This document shows, in pieces, positions 1-3,308 of a DNA stretch of 3,308 nucleotides. Position 1 is the first letter of the stretch; each line of letters starts with the position of its first letter. This stretch comes from an archaeon (lineage in GTDB: Archaea; EX4484-52; B79-G9): positions 1-3,308 of the forward strand of contig JBDRKP010000045.1 in the NCBI GenBank assembly GCA_043813875.1. The letters are read 5' to 3'. The position numbers are program-made.

Positions 1-3000
1 TAAGAAATACAGTATTCAGAAATTCATACAGGATGAAGCGATAATCAAGAATGAGCGAGGTAGTATGCAATTTAATTTACTGCTTCTCGCTATGAATATG
101 TCAGAAGAACAGCTTAAGAAATTCAAAGAACGGAAAGCAAAGCAGGAGACTAAGTAATGCAATCAGAATGTGAAAAGCTCTCAGAGCAACTCAGACAAGA
201 TGTTGTAACAGTCATCGAAGCAGTGTGGAAATCGATTGATTGGGATAAGGTCAGTAGCAGAAGAAGAATGAAAATATATGAGGAGTATCAAAATAAAATA
301 AAAAGCGCATCTCAGGTCGGAAAGGTGAGTCATTTCTTGGAGAAACTCACTTCTAAAATGGATTGCACTCTTTCGGATACGAACTCAGCAAACGTGCTTG
401 AAATAATCAGAAATATCGAAAAAGAGGAGTTAGACCTTGAATTTCTCAATACATGCAGAAACGAGACCCAACTTTTAGTTTTGTTGATGCGAGAGAGACG
501 TGCAGAACTTAACGAAAATAGTAAACAAACAGGAGGTTGACAATGTTCGAACGTATCGAAGGAAAAATCACGGCTGTAGAGCCTCTGTCACATATTGGGG
601 AATCCCTATCAATTTATTCCCACTTTGCGAAAGAAAAGATGCTTGTGAGCACAAAAACAGGGCAGAGAGTTATAGAAGTTCCGGTTATATCAGGCAATTC
701 GTTCAGAGGTGTATTACGGCGCAGAGCAGGGTATAAACTTCTTAGCTTGCTTGATATCAAAAAAGAAACCCTGTCTGAAAGTCTCCAACATGCTTTTTTT
801 AGCGGCGGGATATTGAAAAAAGGAGCAGGGAATGGAGTAATAGACACCCAATTCGTCAGTAAATTAAGATCAAATCTCCCCACCATATCTCTATTTGGAA
901 CTGCGATCGGGCAGCAACTTATTCAGGGAAAACTTGATGTAGGTCAACTGATACCGATTTCTTGTCAAACTAAGAGTAGAACGAACATTGACTCAGAGAT
1001 TTCAATATACAGCCTGCTTGATGAGCGCTCAGCGACTCGTCGTGACGACATGGAGGATAAGACAAAAGGTACGCAGGACCCAGATGAGCAAAAGCAGCAG
1101 ATGCGCTATACTCATGAAGTCCTTGTAGCAGGTACGGAGTTCTATCATTACTTTACCCTGAAAAGTTGCAATGAATTGGAAACGGGCGCGTTCTGGAGTA
1201 CCCTGGCAGAGTTCTCAAAGTATCCCAAAATCGGAGGGTTAGGATGCCGGGGTTTCGGGATGGTTAAACTAGGTTATACAATCGAGACGGAATTGGCGCA
1301 GAAATACGAGGCTTGGGTAGTTGAGAGTAAGGAAACTATTACGAAATATTTTAAGGAATTAGAGGCAATCGTTTAAATAATATTATAGTTTTAATACTAA
1401 ACGATACCTTTAAATACTTTTAGATACTTATAGAGTATTGGCAATAAGCCAAATATGGAGGAAAATAACATGAGTAAGAAAATCACAAAAGAAAAAAATA
1501 AACATGATCTTTTCGAGGGTCATGAAGCCAGGAAAATTGATTTTTCACGGGAATTAGAGAACAAATTGCTTGAGCAAAAGCTCAGGCAAAGAAAATGAAT
1601 GGAGGAAAAATAAAATGAAATGTATTTATTGCGACAAAAGCGCAACACATGTACGGGGGAGCGAAACCGCGACAGGCTCCCGCCCCGTCTGCAAAACACA
1701 TGCGCGGATGTACAATATAAAAACACCCATTATTTTTGAACAAATAATGGGAGATGTGGTAGTAACGAGGGAAATGAAAGAATGGATTAGAATAAGGGGG
1801 AAATAACATGAATGATATAGATGGAATATGTCCCGAATGTCATGATGAAAAGCCTTCATTGATATATGACGAATATCGGGATGAATACATTTGTAATACA
1901 TGCGGGTTGATTATCAGAGGAAATTACTTTGAATAATCATAGCTGTTTTGCTTATAAAGGATAAGTAATAAAAAACAGCATGAGTAAGAACTTTTGCGAA
2001 CAAAGAGGATATCGTAAAGTTGTGTACTGTACAAAACTGTATGGTATGCAGTAACGTGGAACAATGCCGACAGGATGGTATGTTCAGCAAAGAACAAATA
2101 GAGTTTCTTATTAAAGAAGGGAGACTCTAATAAAAAATAAATAATGGAGGAACAATAAAATGACACCGAGCAACAATCGCACGCTCGATATTTATTTCGA
2201 TATGATGCACATTTCTGTGCACGCATTATTTTTTGCATATGACTTAGCCTAAACTGAACATGGAGGAAAACAAATATGAATAATAAAAAAATGATAATCG
2301 ACGGTCAAGAAATGCAGACCATAGAAAAGCCAATTCGTTGCACAAGAGCGGCTGATGGATGGTGTCAGAAGCTCTCGAAGAAAACACATTTCACAAAGGG
2401 AATATGTGAAGATGGATCCATGGTCGTGGGATCATCATGTCATGACGGCCGCCGTATGTGCGGCTATATCTACAGATATGACCAATGGAAGCAAGACATT
2501 CTTCCCTTGCTAATTGAATCGAACCGTGTCGTGTATGGGGGGGGGGTTAATGCCCTATGATATAGTTAACTGCGGAGAGCGTAAAATACAAACACTCTTC
2601 CGCATTGCTCTAAAAGATATCTGTGAAAGACATGGTATCCAAGAGGGCGATGCGGTTGAAGTTTTTATCCGCAAAAGGGAGCACTAACACGAGCGCGGAC
2701 ACGGAGCCAAAATGACCATTCATTTTTCCGAACTTGACAAATACGGGCAGCACATCACATCTTTACAGCATGAACCTATGAAAATCACTGCATCCCTGAC
2801 AAGTCCTTATGTCAGTACAGATTACATCTTTCTCGATGCTCTAATCAGCAGCGCGGTCTGGCAGGATGTGATGGGGGAACAGGCGTTTAACATCCCTGAG
2901 AATAAATCAGATGTTTTCTATATTCCGCTGCCCATTAAACAAATCGGTACAAAAGAACCGTTCTATGCCGCATCAATTTGCTTCCCGAAGCAGGCTGTAG

Positions 3001-3308
3001 AGGGAACGGCGCGGTGGCGCAAGCAGACAGATATTGAAAGTAAAAAGAAAATCCGCATTGGCTCAGGAGAGTACAAACGGTACGATATGCCGATGCCGTA
3101 CACAAGCGCGGAAGAAATCATATTTTATGCGAATGGGAATAAAGAAGAAATCGAAAGGCTCTTACAATATATTCCAGGGATTGGTAAGAAAAGAACGCAG
3201 GGATATGGCAATGTTCGAAAATGGCAGGTTGAGTCATCGGAACATGATTATAGCGTAGTCAAGGATGGCATACCAATGCGTCCGATTCCTGTATCTGAGG
3301 CTGCGCAA

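What a model noticed while it worked through the whole genome (the two positions that open the first line are those of the whole stretch)
1..3308. Type IV CRISPR-Cas effector genes split by a block of zinc-ribbon mini-genes
A 3.3-kb contig carries type IV cas11, cas7 (csf2) and cas5 (csf3), but cas7 and cas5 are separated by 1.3 kb with five tiny genes (30-94 aa), most behind their own GGAGG ribosome site, three of them Cys-rich zinc-ribbon-like proteins. I read this as an archaeal, probably plasmid- or virus-borne, type IV system that has taken up small zinc-ribbon partners in place of the usual DinG/CysH accessory. Type IV systems are rare in archaea and I know of none from DPANN-like lineages.
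Evidence so far: PADLOC scan: g00821 typeIV_Cas11 E 3e-25, g00822 Csf2/Cas7 E 9e-69, g00828 Csf3/Cas5 E 3e-50; g00827 no family (g00823-g00826 were too short to send). Sequences and GGAGG repeats read directly: g00824 CxxC...C..H, g00825 CPEC...CNTC, g00827 seven Cys. relatives.tsv: Csf3 in 0 of 41 genomes of the phylum and 18 of 10117 archaea. No CRISPR-like array among 70 tandem repeats found by TRF; no relative of Cas7 in the species-genome collection.
(Added by a program. Inside this text positions count along the whole contig: contig position 1 is position 1 of the stretch shown here. "Call 12" and the like, gene names such as g00115 and contig names such as C1 are that model's own, and its searches are not shown. 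The text may have been shortened before it was handed on; [...] marks where a part breaks off. The agent that wrote the report below was given it as the finding of a first reader that could run no searches.)

Follow-up and report, generated by a model that had tools for sequence, protein, structure and literature searches.

The report
Cargo cassette inside viral CRISPR operon
This short contig is a piece of a virus-borne type IV-B CRISPR-Cas operon with a swappable block of tiny genes, carrying its own promoter, wedged between two of its genes; some relatives carry an enzyme that destroys a CRISPR alarm signal at the same spot, so the tiny genes are more likely counter-defence cargo than new parts of the CRISPR machine.

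Summary
The window carries a csf1 tail, cas11, csf2/cas7, a 1335-bp block of small same-strand ORFs, then csf3/cas5, which runs off the contig end.

I found 22 related loci. In all 9 whose downstream gene I scanned, a cysH-like gene follows csf3. So this is an ordinary type IV-B operon whose cysH is simply off-contig, not replaced.

The closest relative (Cas7 96% identical) has no insert. The cas7|cas5 junction can be seen in 9 close relatives, and 4 of them carry an insert. All 4 share the same 70-bp left flank, which holds a BRE/TATA-like promoter and four ATACY repeats at 10-bp phase. The two whose right end can be seen share a conserved 45-48-aa AbrB-like gene just before csf3.

The cargo between these ends differs. 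In L005, L006 and L010 it starts with a Crn4-type ring-nuclease homologue (cut short in L010). In the window it is Zn-ribbon mini-proteins and ORFans.

Other junctions of the same operon hold HNH homing endonucleases in three relatives. Relatives lie in tailed-virus contigs.

Best reading: a recombination-swapped accessory cassette, probably anti-defence, inside a viral IV-B operon. Assignment to the DPANN host rests on binning alone.

The parts
2..157 (+). C-terminal 51 codons of csf1 (type IV Cas8-like large subunit); 5' end off the contig
   Evidence: tblastn: 98% identical to the C-terminus of the 237-aa ORF before cas11 in L008. That ORF hits PADLOC Csf1_0_IV at 3.2e-39. The fragment alone hits no family.
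157..540 (+). cas11 (type IV small subunit), 127 aa
   Evidence: PADLOC typeIV_Cas11 3e-25. 99% aa identity to L003. dN/dS 0.09 against L003.
543..1376 (+). csf2 / cas7, 277 aa (ATG 543; a TTG at 537 is in frame)
   Evidence: PADLOC Csf2_0_IV 8.7e-69; Pfam RAMPs 1.5e-5; dN/dS 0.04 against L003. Mosaic: the 5' two thirds are 94-95% nt identical to L003. Bin 5 of 6 (about 1097-1235) is 94-96% identical to the insert-bearing L005/L006/L010.
1377..1447 (+). Conserved left flank of the insert, a promoter-like region. TATA-like TTTAAATA lies at 1409-1416, with G at -6 (1403) and A at -3 (1406).
   Evidence: Aligns with the DNA right after cas7 in L005, L006 and L010. The TATA/BRE reading is by eye against the consensus quoted in PMC11065993. 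Activity was not tested.
1394..1428 (+). Four direct ATACY repeats at exact 10-bp spacing overlapping the TATA-like box; putative operator
   Evidence: One match in the window and 0 in 200 shuffles. One match in all 1.64 Mb of G000, and one in each of L005, L006 and L010, at the same place.
1470..1598 (+). Small ORF s1, 42 aa, Lys/Glu-rich, no Cys; no homologue found
   Evidence: Searches give no family. ATGGAGGAAAA lies upstream at 1455-1465. A contig in run X2 matches only from 1467 onward, with other DNA before it.
1615..1806 (+). Small ORF s2, 63 aa, CxxC...C..H knuckle plus three predicted helices
   Evidence: One relative, P0003, at 75% identity over 61 aa from another assembly. AF2 mean pLDDT 67. 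No fold match. A contig in X1 matches only from 1599 onward.
1808..1936 (+). Small ORF s3, 42 aa, stand-alone TFIIB-type zinc ribbon (CPEC...CNTC)
   Evidence: Pfam Zn_Ribbon_TF 29.1 bits against cut-off 29. NCBIfam TFIIB NF001658 3.1e-5, aligned to positions 14-47 of that model. phrog_17221 3.7e-6. 48% identity over 29 aa to the N-terminus of G000's own TFB frame on C30.
1980..2130 (+). Uncertain stretch: a 24-aa ATG ORF (1980-2054) overlapping a 36-aa TTG ORF with 4 Cys (2020-2130) in another frame. Possibly one frameshifted gene, or only one of the two is real.
   Evidence: repeat D7: the start at 1980 resembles the s1 start. No family.
2160..2252 (+). Small ORF s5, 30 aa; doubtful
   Evidence: ATGGAGGAACA lies upstream at 2144-2154. 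A terminator-like hairpin at 2206-2221 lies inside it. A contig in X2 shares 2130-2162 and then continues with a different ORF.
2276..2560 (+). Small ORF s6, 94 aa, 5 Cys + 2 His; ORFan
   Evidence: No true relative among 5.8 billion clusters or 1.84 billion representatives. The three other hits are a translated tandem repeat, a eukaryote-like C2H2 protein and one weak hit at E 2.3e-4 that I did not inspect. The Atlas model has pLDDT 0.51.
2550..2687 (+). Small ORF s7, 45 aa, conserved right-end gene of the insert; weakly AbrB/MazE-like; putative regulator
   Evidence: 82-84% aa identity to L005:4346-4489 at the same place (84% by tblastn; 82% by global alignment). dN/dS 0.13. Five further relatives at 76-87%. 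62% identical homologue in viral contig L277. Pfam MazE_antitoxin E 0.027 and NCBIfam AbrB TIGR01439 E 0.0052, both below cut-off. AF2 strand-strand-helix, pLDDT 72.
2712..3308 (+). csf3 / cas5, first 199 codons; 3' end off the contig
   Evidence: PADLOC Csf3_0_IV 3e-50. 92% aa identity to L008, dN/dS 0.16. Full length in relatives is 231-232 aa.
1455..2270 (+). Four copies of the 11-mer ATGGAGGAA[A/C]A (1455, 1599, 2144, 2260), each 15-18 nt before the ATG of a small ORF
   Evidence: 4 copies in the window, 2 in the other 1.63 Mb of G000 and 0 in 11 related loci (about 100 kb).

Best explanation
The window is a fragment of a type IV-B CRISPR-Cas operon (csf1-cas11-csf2-csf3, with cysH beyond the contig end). 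The operon belongs to a mobile element, most likely a tailed archaeal virus, that was binned with a DPANN-type MAG.

Between csf2 and csf3 sits an accessory cassette site specific to one lineage. It has three parts:
- A conserved left end: a strong archaeal-type promoter (BRE G-6/A-3, TATA TTTAAATA) overlaid by four ATACY repeats on one face of the helix.
- A variable payload.
- A conserved right end: a 45-aa AbrB-like protein gene tightly followed by csf3.

I infer the following. The promoter drives the payload and reads on into s7, csf3 and cysH. The s7 protein binds the ATACY repeats and shuts the promoter down, as Aca proteins do in acr-aca operons. Payloads are exchanged by homologous recombination through the conserved ends and through the repeated ATGGAGGAAAA junctions.

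The payload at this site in three relatives starts with a Crn4-type ring-nuclease homologue, a class proposed to act as an anti-CRISPR when carried by a mobile element. I therefore read the window's Zn-ribbon mini-proteins (the 63-aa knuckle protein, the TFIIB-ribbon-only protein and the Cys-rich ORFans) as candidate anti-defence or host-takeover proteins, not as subunits of the Csf complex.

Shown: the gene identities, the insert and its conserved ends, the differing cargo, the mosaic recombination, and the virus context of relatives. Inferred: promoter activity, s7 as repressor, and an anti-defence role for the cargo.
For: Type IV-B:
- PADLOC hits.
- The csf1 tail is 98% identical to L008's Csf1.
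- A cysH-like PF01507 gene lies downstream of csf3 in 9 of 9 relatives scanned: L001, L003, L004, L008, L009, L012, L014, L021, L024.

Virus context:
- L024 has TerS and TerL, then the operon, then portal.
- L009 has an MCM whose matches in the phage collection are 6 of 7 archaeal viruses.

The insert is lineage-specific:
- Among the 10 close loci (Cas7 75-96% identical), the cas7|cas5 junction is visible in 9. It is abutting in 5 (L003, L004, L007, L008, L009) and interrupted in 4 (window, L005, L006, L010).
- In 12 of 12 more distant loci where both genes were hit, csf3 follows csf2 with no room for an inserted gene; at most 185 nt separate the aligned parts.

Conserved ends:
- The left flank and the 4x ATACY repeat are shared by all 4 inserts and unique in G000.
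- s7 is shared by the window and L005, with dN/dS 0.13.

Cargo differs:
- The first gene in L005, L006 and L010 hits PADLOC Unk_01 at 4.5e-20 and solved Crn4b (9r7b_A) at 1.8e-6 over residues 1-104. The LTPH motif and the RD arginine align.
- Crn4 is a ring nuclease, and its phage and plasmid orthologues are proposed anti-CRISPRs (PMC12830947, passages).

Cassette shuffling:
- Contigs in runs X1, X2 and X6 match the window only from 1467, 1599, 1799, 1803 or 2130 onward, or only up to 2162. These are all gene boundaries.
- The 11-mer junction motif occurs 4 times in the insert, 2 times in the other 1.63 Mb of the genome and 0 times in relatives.
- cas7 and cas5 are mosaics of different relatives.

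The insert is real and not a chimera:
- Zero-difference contigs bridge 1223-2121 and 2100-2588 in X1, and 2630-2780 in X2.

Precedent: anti-defence genes of archaeal viruses are small variable genes behind a conserved strong BRE/TATA promoter with a small regulator (PMC11065993, passages).
Against: - No cargo protein of the window matches any known anti-defence or defence family.
- Four of the seven small ORFs (s1, s4, s5, s6) have no relative at all, and the Atlas model of s6 is poor. Some may not be genes.
- The AbrB reading of s7 is below threshold everywhere: Pfam 14.9 bits against cut-off 24.7, and NCBIfam 16.5 against 28.3. The PDB profile search gave nothing significant. Foldseek found no match at E <= 0.001. 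VIA-align's best Z was 2.2.
- No test links s7 to the ATACY repeats. The s7 homologue in L277 has no such repeat nearby.
- RNA evidence is a handful of contigs from one metatranscriptome, with nothing between 1848 and 2541, and DNA carry-over is possible.
- The archaeal promoter reading depends on the host being an archaeon, which is likely but not proven.
- The anti-defence inference rests on sister loci, not on the window's own genes.
Confidence: 0.6

Rival explanations
1. One reading: the zinc-ribbon mini-proteins are new accessory partners of the type IV effector complex and take the place of DinG/CysH.
For: The small genes lie inside the operon on the same strand, with strong ribosome sites. 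s7 is tightly followed by csf3 in two loci. All cas genes stay intact and under purifying selection despite the insert.
Against: - cysH follows csf3 in 9 of 9 scanned relatives, and the window ends inside csf3.
- The nearest relative lacks the insert.
- The same site holds unrelated cargo in L005, L006 and L010.
- Single small genes occur in other contexts.
- An s7 homologue lies in a viral contig without cas genes.
Confidence: 0.07
2. The block is neutral, hitch-hiking mobile or recombination debris. It would be DNA dragged in by homing-endonuclease-driven or illegitimate recombination at a tolerant gene junction. Most small ORFs would be non-functional, and only the cas genes would matter.
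For: - Other junctions of the same operon hold selfish HNH/NUMOD3 homing endonucleases in L003, L004 and L011.
- L010's Crn4-like gene is truncated.
- Four small ORFs have no relatives.
- The insert-bearing form is at low depth (about 5) beside far more abundant insert-less variants at depth 50-300 in X3.
Against: - s7 is under purifying selection (dN/dS 0.13) and conserved in 6 clusters.
- s2 has a 75% identical relative.
- The left flank with its phased repeats is conserved in 4 of 4 inserts.
- Coding density of the block is about 80%, all on one strand, with matched ribosome sites.
Confidence: 0.2
3. The block is a transcription-control module of the virus rather than anti-defence cargo. 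A TFIIB-ribbon decoy (s3) and an AbrB-like repressor (s7) would redirect host RNA polymerase. Alternatively, the module would just supply an internal regulated promoter for csf3-cysH.
For: s3 is a TFIIB-type ribbon without the core domain. The promoter-like flank lies upstream and s7 sits directly before csf3. AbrB-like small genes also sit upstream of csf1 in L008 and near the operon in L001.
Against: The cargo is not conserved between insert-bearing loci. Crn4-like and 390-aa genes in L005 stand against Zn-ribbon genes here, which does not suit a fixed regulatory role. Insert-less relatives run the operon without it.
Confidence: 0.13
4. Assembly artefact: the contig is a chimera of strains and the insert does not really lie between csf2 and csf3.
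For: The population is highly mosaic, with many co-occurring variants in the same runs.
Against: Independent Logan contigs with 0 differences bridge cas7 into the insert (X1, 1223-2121) and s7 into cas5 (X2, 2630-2780). L005, from another metagenome record, has the same architecture end to end.
Confidence: 0.03

Closest known systems
Type IV-B CRISPR-Cas (Csf) systems, e.g. the Mycobacterium sp. JS623 plasmid system whose complex was solved (PMC7937560, abstract seen; definition in PMC7038947, passages seen)
   Same: Same gene set and order, csf1-cas11-csf2-csf3(-cysH). No dinG, cas6, adaptation genes or array on what is held. Carried by a mobile element.
   Different: The operon is interrupted between csf2 and csf3 by a 1.3-kb promoter-bearing small-gene block. 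The nearest named Cas7 relatives are only 33-35% identical (haloarchaeal plasmids). NCBIfam Csf2/Csf3 models are matched far below their cut-offs.
Type IV-B loci of archaeal viruses: 'Fuxiviridae' of Bathyarchaeia (PMC10541130, passages) and a Methanoperedens virus (10.1101/2023.08.02.551345, passages)
   Same: Archaeal-virus-borne IV-B with an adjacent cysH-like gene and no adaptation module. A counter-defence role has been proposed.
   Different: Fuxivirus loci carry a two-repeat mini-array. None is seen here, although L024 has a 19-nt repeat pair before csf1. The passages I read mention no genes inserted inside the operon. I did not see their figures or supplementary tables.
acr-aca operons and the promoter-defined anti-defence gene loci of archaeal viruses (PMC11065993, passages)
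   Same: A conserved regulatory sequence around a strong BRE/TATA promoter. Small, fast-changing, mostly unannotated genes behind it. A small conserved regulator gene travelling with them.
   Different: The putative regulator is AbrB-like (weak), not wHTH or HTH. The module sits inside a cas operon and reads into csf3. No window cargo gene matches a known Acr. Nothing here is tested.
Crn4 ring nuclease, formerly Unk_01 (PMC12830947, passages; PDB 9r7b, 9sma, 9qs9)
   Same: The first cargo gene at the same site in L005, L006 and L010 is a homologue: E 1.8e-6 to Crn4b, PADLOC Unk_01 4.5e-20.
   Different: It is not present in the window, whose cargo is unrelated. Activity of the viral homologue is untested. 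L010's copy is truncated.
Free-standing HNH/NUMOD3 homing endonuclease genes between conserved phage genes (general knowledge, recalled; PADLOC 'HEase' models)
   Same: L003 (csf1|cas11) and L004 and L011 (cas11|cas7) hold homologous NUMOD3+HNH genes exactly at gene junctions of the same operon. Flanking genes are mosaic, as expected from co-conversion.
   Different: The window's own insert holds no endonuclease gene and no terminal repeats.

Membership tests
Type IV-B CRISPR-Cas | Csf2 (type IV Cas7) | tested here: met
   PADLOC Csf2_0_IV 8.7e-69, covering residues 3-274. NCBIfam TIGR03115 gives only 66 bits against cut-off 130.
Type IV-B CRISPR-Cas | Csf3 (type IV Cas5) | tested here: met
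   PADLOC Csf3_0_IV 3e-50 on the 199 residues held.
Type IV-B CRISPR-Cas | Cas11 small subunit (sets IV-B apart from IV-A; PMC7038947 passages) | tested here: met
   PADLOC typeIV_Cas11 3e-25.
Type IV-B CRISPR-Cas | Csf1 large subunit | tested here: met
   Only the last 51 residues are on the contig. They are 98% identical to the end of L008's Csf1 (PADLOC 3.2e-39).
Type IV-B CRISPR-Cas | Neighbouring cysH-like (PAPS reductase family) gene | not testable with these tools
   The contig ends inside csf3. The gene is present after csf3 in 9 of 9 relatives scanned. G000 holds only one weak PF01507 match, on a different contig.
Type IV-B CRISPR-Cas | No dinG, no csf5/cas6, no CRISPR array | tested here: inconclusive
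   None is seen on the 3.3 kb, in G000 or in the flanks of 13 related loci (Pfam of L008 and L009 ORFs). The element is incomplete.
acr-aca-type anti-defence operon | Conserved promoter/operator sequence in front of the cargo | tested here: met
   By sequence only. The flank is shared by 4 of 4 inserts, with the 4x ATACY repeat and a TATA/BRE-like core. Activity was not tested.
acr-aca-type anti-defence operon | Small cargo genes that differ between close relatives | tested here: met
   Window cargo against L005/L006/L010 cargo. Break points at gene boundaries.
acr-aca-type anti-defence operon | Conserved DNA-binding regulator gene in the operon | tested here: inconclusive
   s7 is conserved, but its DNA-binding fold is supported only by sub-threshold AbrB/MazE matches. 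Fold searches gave nothing.
acr-aca-type anti-defence operon | At least one cargo protein with a recognised anti-defence activity | tested here: not met
   None in the window. Met only in the sister loci L005, L006 and L010, by the Crn4 homologue.
AbrB/SpoVT (swapped-hairpin) regulators, for s7 | Match to the family model above its cut-off | tested here: not met
   Pfam PF04014 14.9 bits against 24.7; 2 of 6 family members match at E <= 1. NCBIfam TIGR01439 16.5 against 28.3.
AbrB/SpoVT (swapped-hairpin) regulators, for s7 | Swapped-hairpin fold in a dimer | tested here: inconclusive
   The AF2 monomer is strand-strand-helix, pLDDT 72. Foldseek has no match at E <= 0.001; weak rows include VapB, MazE, C56 and RIFT chains. 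VIA-align best Z is 2.2. The dimer prediction could not be run.
TFIIB-type zinc ribbon, for s3 | CxxC...CxxC ribbon matching PF08271 at its cut-off | tested here: met
   29.1 bits against cut-off 29.0, so marginal. NCBIfam TFIIB 3.1e-5 on the N-terminal ribbon region. Four Cys are present.
Transcription factor B (full TFB/TFIIB), for s3 | B-reader/linker and two cyclin-fold core domains | tested here: not met
   The ORF is 42 aa and ends after the ribbon.

The most novel reading that the evidence does not exclude
In this clade of groundwater archaeal viruses, the csf2|csf3 junction of the type IV-B operon is a dedicated, self-regulated slot for exchangeable counter-defence genes. The slot consists of an iteron-type promoter plus an AbrB-like repressor. 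It carries a Crn4 ring nuclease in some viruses. In the window it carries a set of unknown Zn-ribbon mini-proteins, including a TFIIB-ribbon mimic that could jam host transcription initiation. Embedding such a slot inside the operon, reading through into csf3-cysH, would mean that the IV-B complex is itself deployed together with anti-CRISPR cargo as one counter-defence unit. That would be the first genomic argument of this kind for the long-suspected anti-CRISPR role of type IV-B.
Probability: 0.33. Interest if true: 0.68.

Novelty: new variant of a known kind. Interest (0 to 1): 0.5.

Why it matters
The function of type IV-B is still unsolved. One idea in print is that mobile elements use it against host CRISPR systems.

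This clade offers natural variants of one operon, which gives three things:
- Comparative handles on which parts of the operon tolerate interruption. Variants exist with no insert, with homing endonucleases at two junctions, and with a promoter-bearing cassette that carries either a ring-nuclease homologue or unknown mini-proteins.
- A bait for finding new anti-defence genes of uncultured archaeal viruses, where very few are known: the conserved flank plus the 45-aa gene.
- A concrete set of tiny proteins to test.

It also corrects two tempting conclusions. CysH has not been replaced, and a DPANN host is not shown.

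Tried and rejected
- Relatives of the 94-aa ORF: only itself among the 5.8-billion-cluster set. Three other hits turned up among 1.84 billion representatives. Two are artefacts, a translated tandem repeat and a eukaryote-like C2H2 protein. The third (P0006, E 2.3e-4) I did not inspect.
- Relatives of s2 in viral and genome collections: none real. The three Murdochiella matches cover 14-17 residues.
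- s7 in genome contigs: only 14-residue chance matches.
- Scanning IMG/VR and the species genomes for the 4x ATACY pattern returned more than 119 and more than 122 stretches. None of the 241 loci held shares any window protein or insert DNA, so the pattern alone is too loose.
- Atlas look-alikes for s7 and s6 score 0.79-0.82, which is chance level.
- Fold searches with the s2 and s7 models gave nothing significant.
- Solved-structure searches with s7, alone and as a profile, gave nothing significant.
- Rfam and tRNA scans of the window found nothing. No tRNAs in 11 related loci.
- No terminal inverted or direct repeats bound the insert, so a transposon or MITE is unlikely.
- A toxin-antitoxin reading of s6+s7 is rejected, because the gene before s7 differs in L005.
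- Tetranucleotide distance of the contig to G000 lies at the 65th percentile of same-size pieces. That neither supports nor refutes the binning.
- No other G000 contig relates to the relatives' elements beyond housekeeping-type PRTase and MCM similarity.
- Complex prediction for an s7 homodimer could not be run.
- Run X3 shows no cover of 1555-2664, and the RNA run X6 none of 1848-2541. These are contig data, so the gaps prove nothing.
- Earlier scan notes by sequence found nothing.

Full report
**What is in the window.** All sizeable coding frames run on the + strand.
- PADLOC identifies cas11 (157-540, 3e-25), csf2/cas7 (543-1376, 8.7e-69) and csf3/cas5 (2712-3308, 3e-50, open at the contig end).
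- The first 51 codons (2-157) hit no family on their own. They are 98% identical to the end of the 237-aa ORF that precedes cas11 in the related locus L008. That ORF is Csf1 (PADLOC 3.2e-39).
- So the contig reads csf1'-cas11-csf2-[1335 bp]-csf3'.
- The window is the whole of contig C45 of a 1.64-Mb, 90-contig archaeal bin. The bin has one TFB frame, on C30. Earlier scan notes call it a DPANN archaeon; I did not test that.

**The gap.** It holds seven candidate + strand ORFs:
- s1, 42 aa.
- s2, 63 aa, with a CxxC...C..H pattern.
- s3, 42 aa, with CPEC...CNTC.
- A doubtful 24/36-aa overlapping pair at 1980-2130.
- s5, 30 aa.
- s6, 94 aa, with 5 Cys and 2 His (not seven Cys).

GGAGG placed 4-11 nt before an ATG occurs six times in the window against 0.71 expected (0 of 200 shuffles). 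Four of the six sit before gap ORFs. Those four share the longer word ATGGAGGAA[A/C]A. That word occurs 4 times here, twice in the remaining 1.63 Mb of the bin and never in 11 related loci.

s3 reaches the Pfam cut-off of the TFIIB zinc ribbon by a hair (29.1 against 29.0). It also hits NCBIfam's TFIIB model over the ribbon region only. So it is a ribbon without the rest of TFB.

**Relatives.**
- The species-genome collection holds no relative of Cas7. Neither do the other 41 genomes of the phylum.
- Metagenome contigs gave 20 relatives and IMG/VR gave two.
- I searched all 22 with the window's proteins.
- A PAPS-reductase (cysH-like) gene lies downstream of csf3 in every one of the nine loci I scanned for it: L001, L003, L004, L008, L009, L012, L014, L021 and L024.
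- With cas11 present and no dinG, cas6 or array seen, this is subtype IV-B as defined in PMC7038947 (passages).
- The window stops inside csf3, so the missing cysH is an edge effect, not a replacement.

**The element is a virus or a close kin of one.**
- In L024 the operon lies between terminase small and large subunit genes and a portal gene.
- L009 carries an MCM-family helicase. Six of its seven matches in the phage collection are archaeal viruses.
- The best named Cas7 matches are on two haloarchaeal plasmids, at 33-35%.
- Type IV-B in archaeal viruses is in print. It is described for 'Fuxiviridae' of Bathyarchaeia (PMC10541130, passages) and for a Methanoperedens virus (10.1101/2023.08.02.551345, passages). 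Earlier notes of this scan report it in cyanophages.
- Nothing else in the bin relates to these elements.
- The contig's tetranucleotide make-up is unremarkable for the bin (65th percentile). The host assignment therefore rests on binning alone.

**The insert is specific to one lineage and has conserved ends.** Ten loci, the window included, have Cas7 75-96% identical to the window's.
- The csf2|csf3 junction is visible in nine of them.
- In five (L003, L004, L007, L008, L009) csf3 follows at once. L003 is among them, with Cas7 96% and Cas11 99% identical to the window.
- In four (window, L005, L006, L010) there is an insert.
- In the 12 more distant loci where both genes were hit, there is no room for an inserted gene between them.
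- All four inserts begin with the same roughly 70 bp.
- Within that flank, four ATACY words stand at exact 10-bp spacing (window 1394-1428). They overlap a TTTAAATA box that has G at -6 and A at -3.
- The four-fold pattern occurs once in the whole bin and once in each of L005, L006 and L010, always at this place.
- The box and the two upstream bases fit the strong archaeal-virus promoter described in PMC11065993 (passages). That comparison is mine, by eye.
- At the right end, the window and L005 (the only other locus that reaches it) share s7 at 82-84% amino-acid identity. dN/dS is 0.13, like cas7 in the same pair at 0.12.
- s7 ends 24 nt before the csf3 start in the window, and a few bases before it in L005.

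**What s7 is.**
- Five further relatives at 76-87% identity exist in other assemblies.
- A 62% identical one lies in a 10.5-kb IMG/VR contig with a terminase gene, next to a ParB-N gene and with no cas genes.
- Pfam MazE_antitoxin (E 0.027) and NCBIfam AbrB (E 0.0052) both point to the swapped-hairpin regulators, but both lie below their cut-offs.
- The AF2 monomer shows strand-strand-helix at pLDDT 72.
- Foldseek and VIA-align give nothing significant. A dimer prediction could not be run.
- I treat 'AbrB-like regulator' as a lead, not a finding.

**The cargo differs.**
- In L005 the payload is a 106-aa gene, a 390-aa gene and a 56-aa coiled-coil gene. L006 and L010 begin the same way.
- The 106-aa protein hits PADLOC 'Unk_01, small protein sometimes fused to CARF' (4.5e-20). 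It also hits the solved ring nucleases Crn4b (9r7b_A, 1.8e-6, residues 1-104), Crn4a and Crn4. The LTPH motif and an RD arginine are aligned.
- Crn4 degrades cyclic oligoadenylates, and its phage and plasmid orthologues are proposed anti-CRISPRs (PMC12830947, passages).
- L010's copy is cut short by a deletion.
- The window's cargo shares nothing with this set.
- s2 has one 75% identical relative and a middling model.
- s6 has no real relative and a poor Atlas model.
- s1, s4 and s5 have no relative at all.

**Signs of cassette exchange.**
- The window's cas7 is a mosaic. It is 94-95% nucleotide identical to L003 over the first half, falling to 77% at the end. It is 65-70% identical to L005, L006 and L010 at the start, rising to 94-96% near the 3' end.
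- cas11 is nearly identical to L003 (dS 0.07). The csf1 tail and the middle of cas5 match L008 (dS 0.04; 95-100%).
- Contigs from public runs match the window only from 1467, 1599, 1799, 1803 or 2130 onward, or only up to 2162, with unrelated DNA beyond. These are the boundaries of single small genes.
- The same call shows zero-difference contigs bridging cas7 into the insert (X1, 1223-2121; 2100-2588) and s7 into cas5 (X2, 2630-2780). So the architecture is not a chimera. X1 may be the source sample, and the runs may belong to one campaign.
- Insert-less variants are far deeper in X3 (50-300 against about 5).
- One metatranscriptome (X6) has exact contigs on parts of the cas genes and on 2542-2734. 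This is only a weak hint of transcription.

**Other junctions are invaded too.**
- L003 has a 380-aa NUMOD3+HNH gene between csf1 and cas11.
- L011 has a homologous 277-aa gene between cas11 and cas7. L004 starts with the tail of the same gene right before cas7.
- L009 has a 313-aa ORF, and L014 a ParB-N/IbrA-like set, between csf3 and cysH.
- Eight of the ten close loci show at least one interruption.
- The cas genes stay intact and under purifying selection (dN/dS 0.04-0.16).

**Reading.**
- The block is an accessory cassette site inside a viral IV-B operon. Its ends are conserved and its payload is swapped by recombination.
- Its layout (strong promoter with phased repeats, small fast-changing genes, small conserved gene at the end) works like an acr-aca operon. 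A ring-nuclease homologue in the sister payloads makes a counter-defence role the most likely one.
- For the window's own mini-proteins this is inference. None matches a known anti-defence family.
- I found no paper describing genes inserted inside IV-B operons in two full-text searches. I saw only passages of the papers named, not their figures or supplements.

Noticed in passing
L003:819-1961; L011:942-1775; L004:1-131: Homologous NUMOD3+HNH homing-endonuclease genes sit exactly at gene junctions of the same IV-B operon. The junction is csf1|cas11 in L003 and cas11|cas7 in L011 and L004. Contigs with the L003-type junction also occur in runs X1-X3 (loose ends at 157).
   Followed up: partly
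L024:6864-6882 and 6940-6958: A 19-nt direct repeat pair 76 nt apart, right between the terminase gene and csf1. This may be a two-repeat mini-array like the one reported for Fuxivirus IV-B loci. I did not search for a protospacer.
   Followed up: no
L011:860-960: A 16-nt direct repeat (880-895 and 941-956) and an 11-bp-stem hairpin at the left boundary of the HNH gene insertion. This could be a homing-site duplication or a terminator.
   Followed up: no
L009:9537-10475; L014:7065-10643: Further insertions lie between csf3 and cysH. L009 has a 313-aa ORF with no family. L014 has a ParB-N gene, methyltransferase-like ORFs and a PAPS_reduct+DUF3440 (IbrA-like) gene.
   Followed up: partly
L008:83-2461 and 10126-11810; L009:24-3290; L004:3329-4507: The elements also carry ARPP-1 domain plus phosphoribosyltransferase genes. 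They carry a second PAPS_reduct+DUF3440 gene with a ParB-N partner (IbrA/IbrB-like pair) a few kb from the IV-B operon. L009 has a Mom-family gene.
   Followed up: no
L010:828-1004: The Crn4-like gene is truncated to 58 aa by a deletion that runs into the next (390-aa) gene. The cargo decays in some copies.
   Followed up: partly
window 543-1376 and 2712-3308: Both flanking cas genes are recombinant patchworks of different relatives. The first ~150 nt of cas5 match no relative above 77%.
   Followed up: yes
L277:4441-4890: A 41-aa s7 homologue directly follows a ParB-N gene in an unrelated terminase-bearing viral contig. This small protein family is wider than the IV-B loci.
   Followed up: partly
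G000:C2:13480-13800; G000:C42:33400-33700: Two tandem repeat arrays (75-bp and 88-bp periods, 3-4 copies) came up in my CRISPR screen. They are not CRISPR arrays.
   Followed up: partly
L008:5575-5763 (-); L001:5223-5381 (-): Other small AbrB/MazE-like genes lie just upstream of csf1 (L008) or near the operon (L001; Pfam MazE 6.5e-5). Small regulators of this type recur around these IV-B loci.
   Followed up: partly
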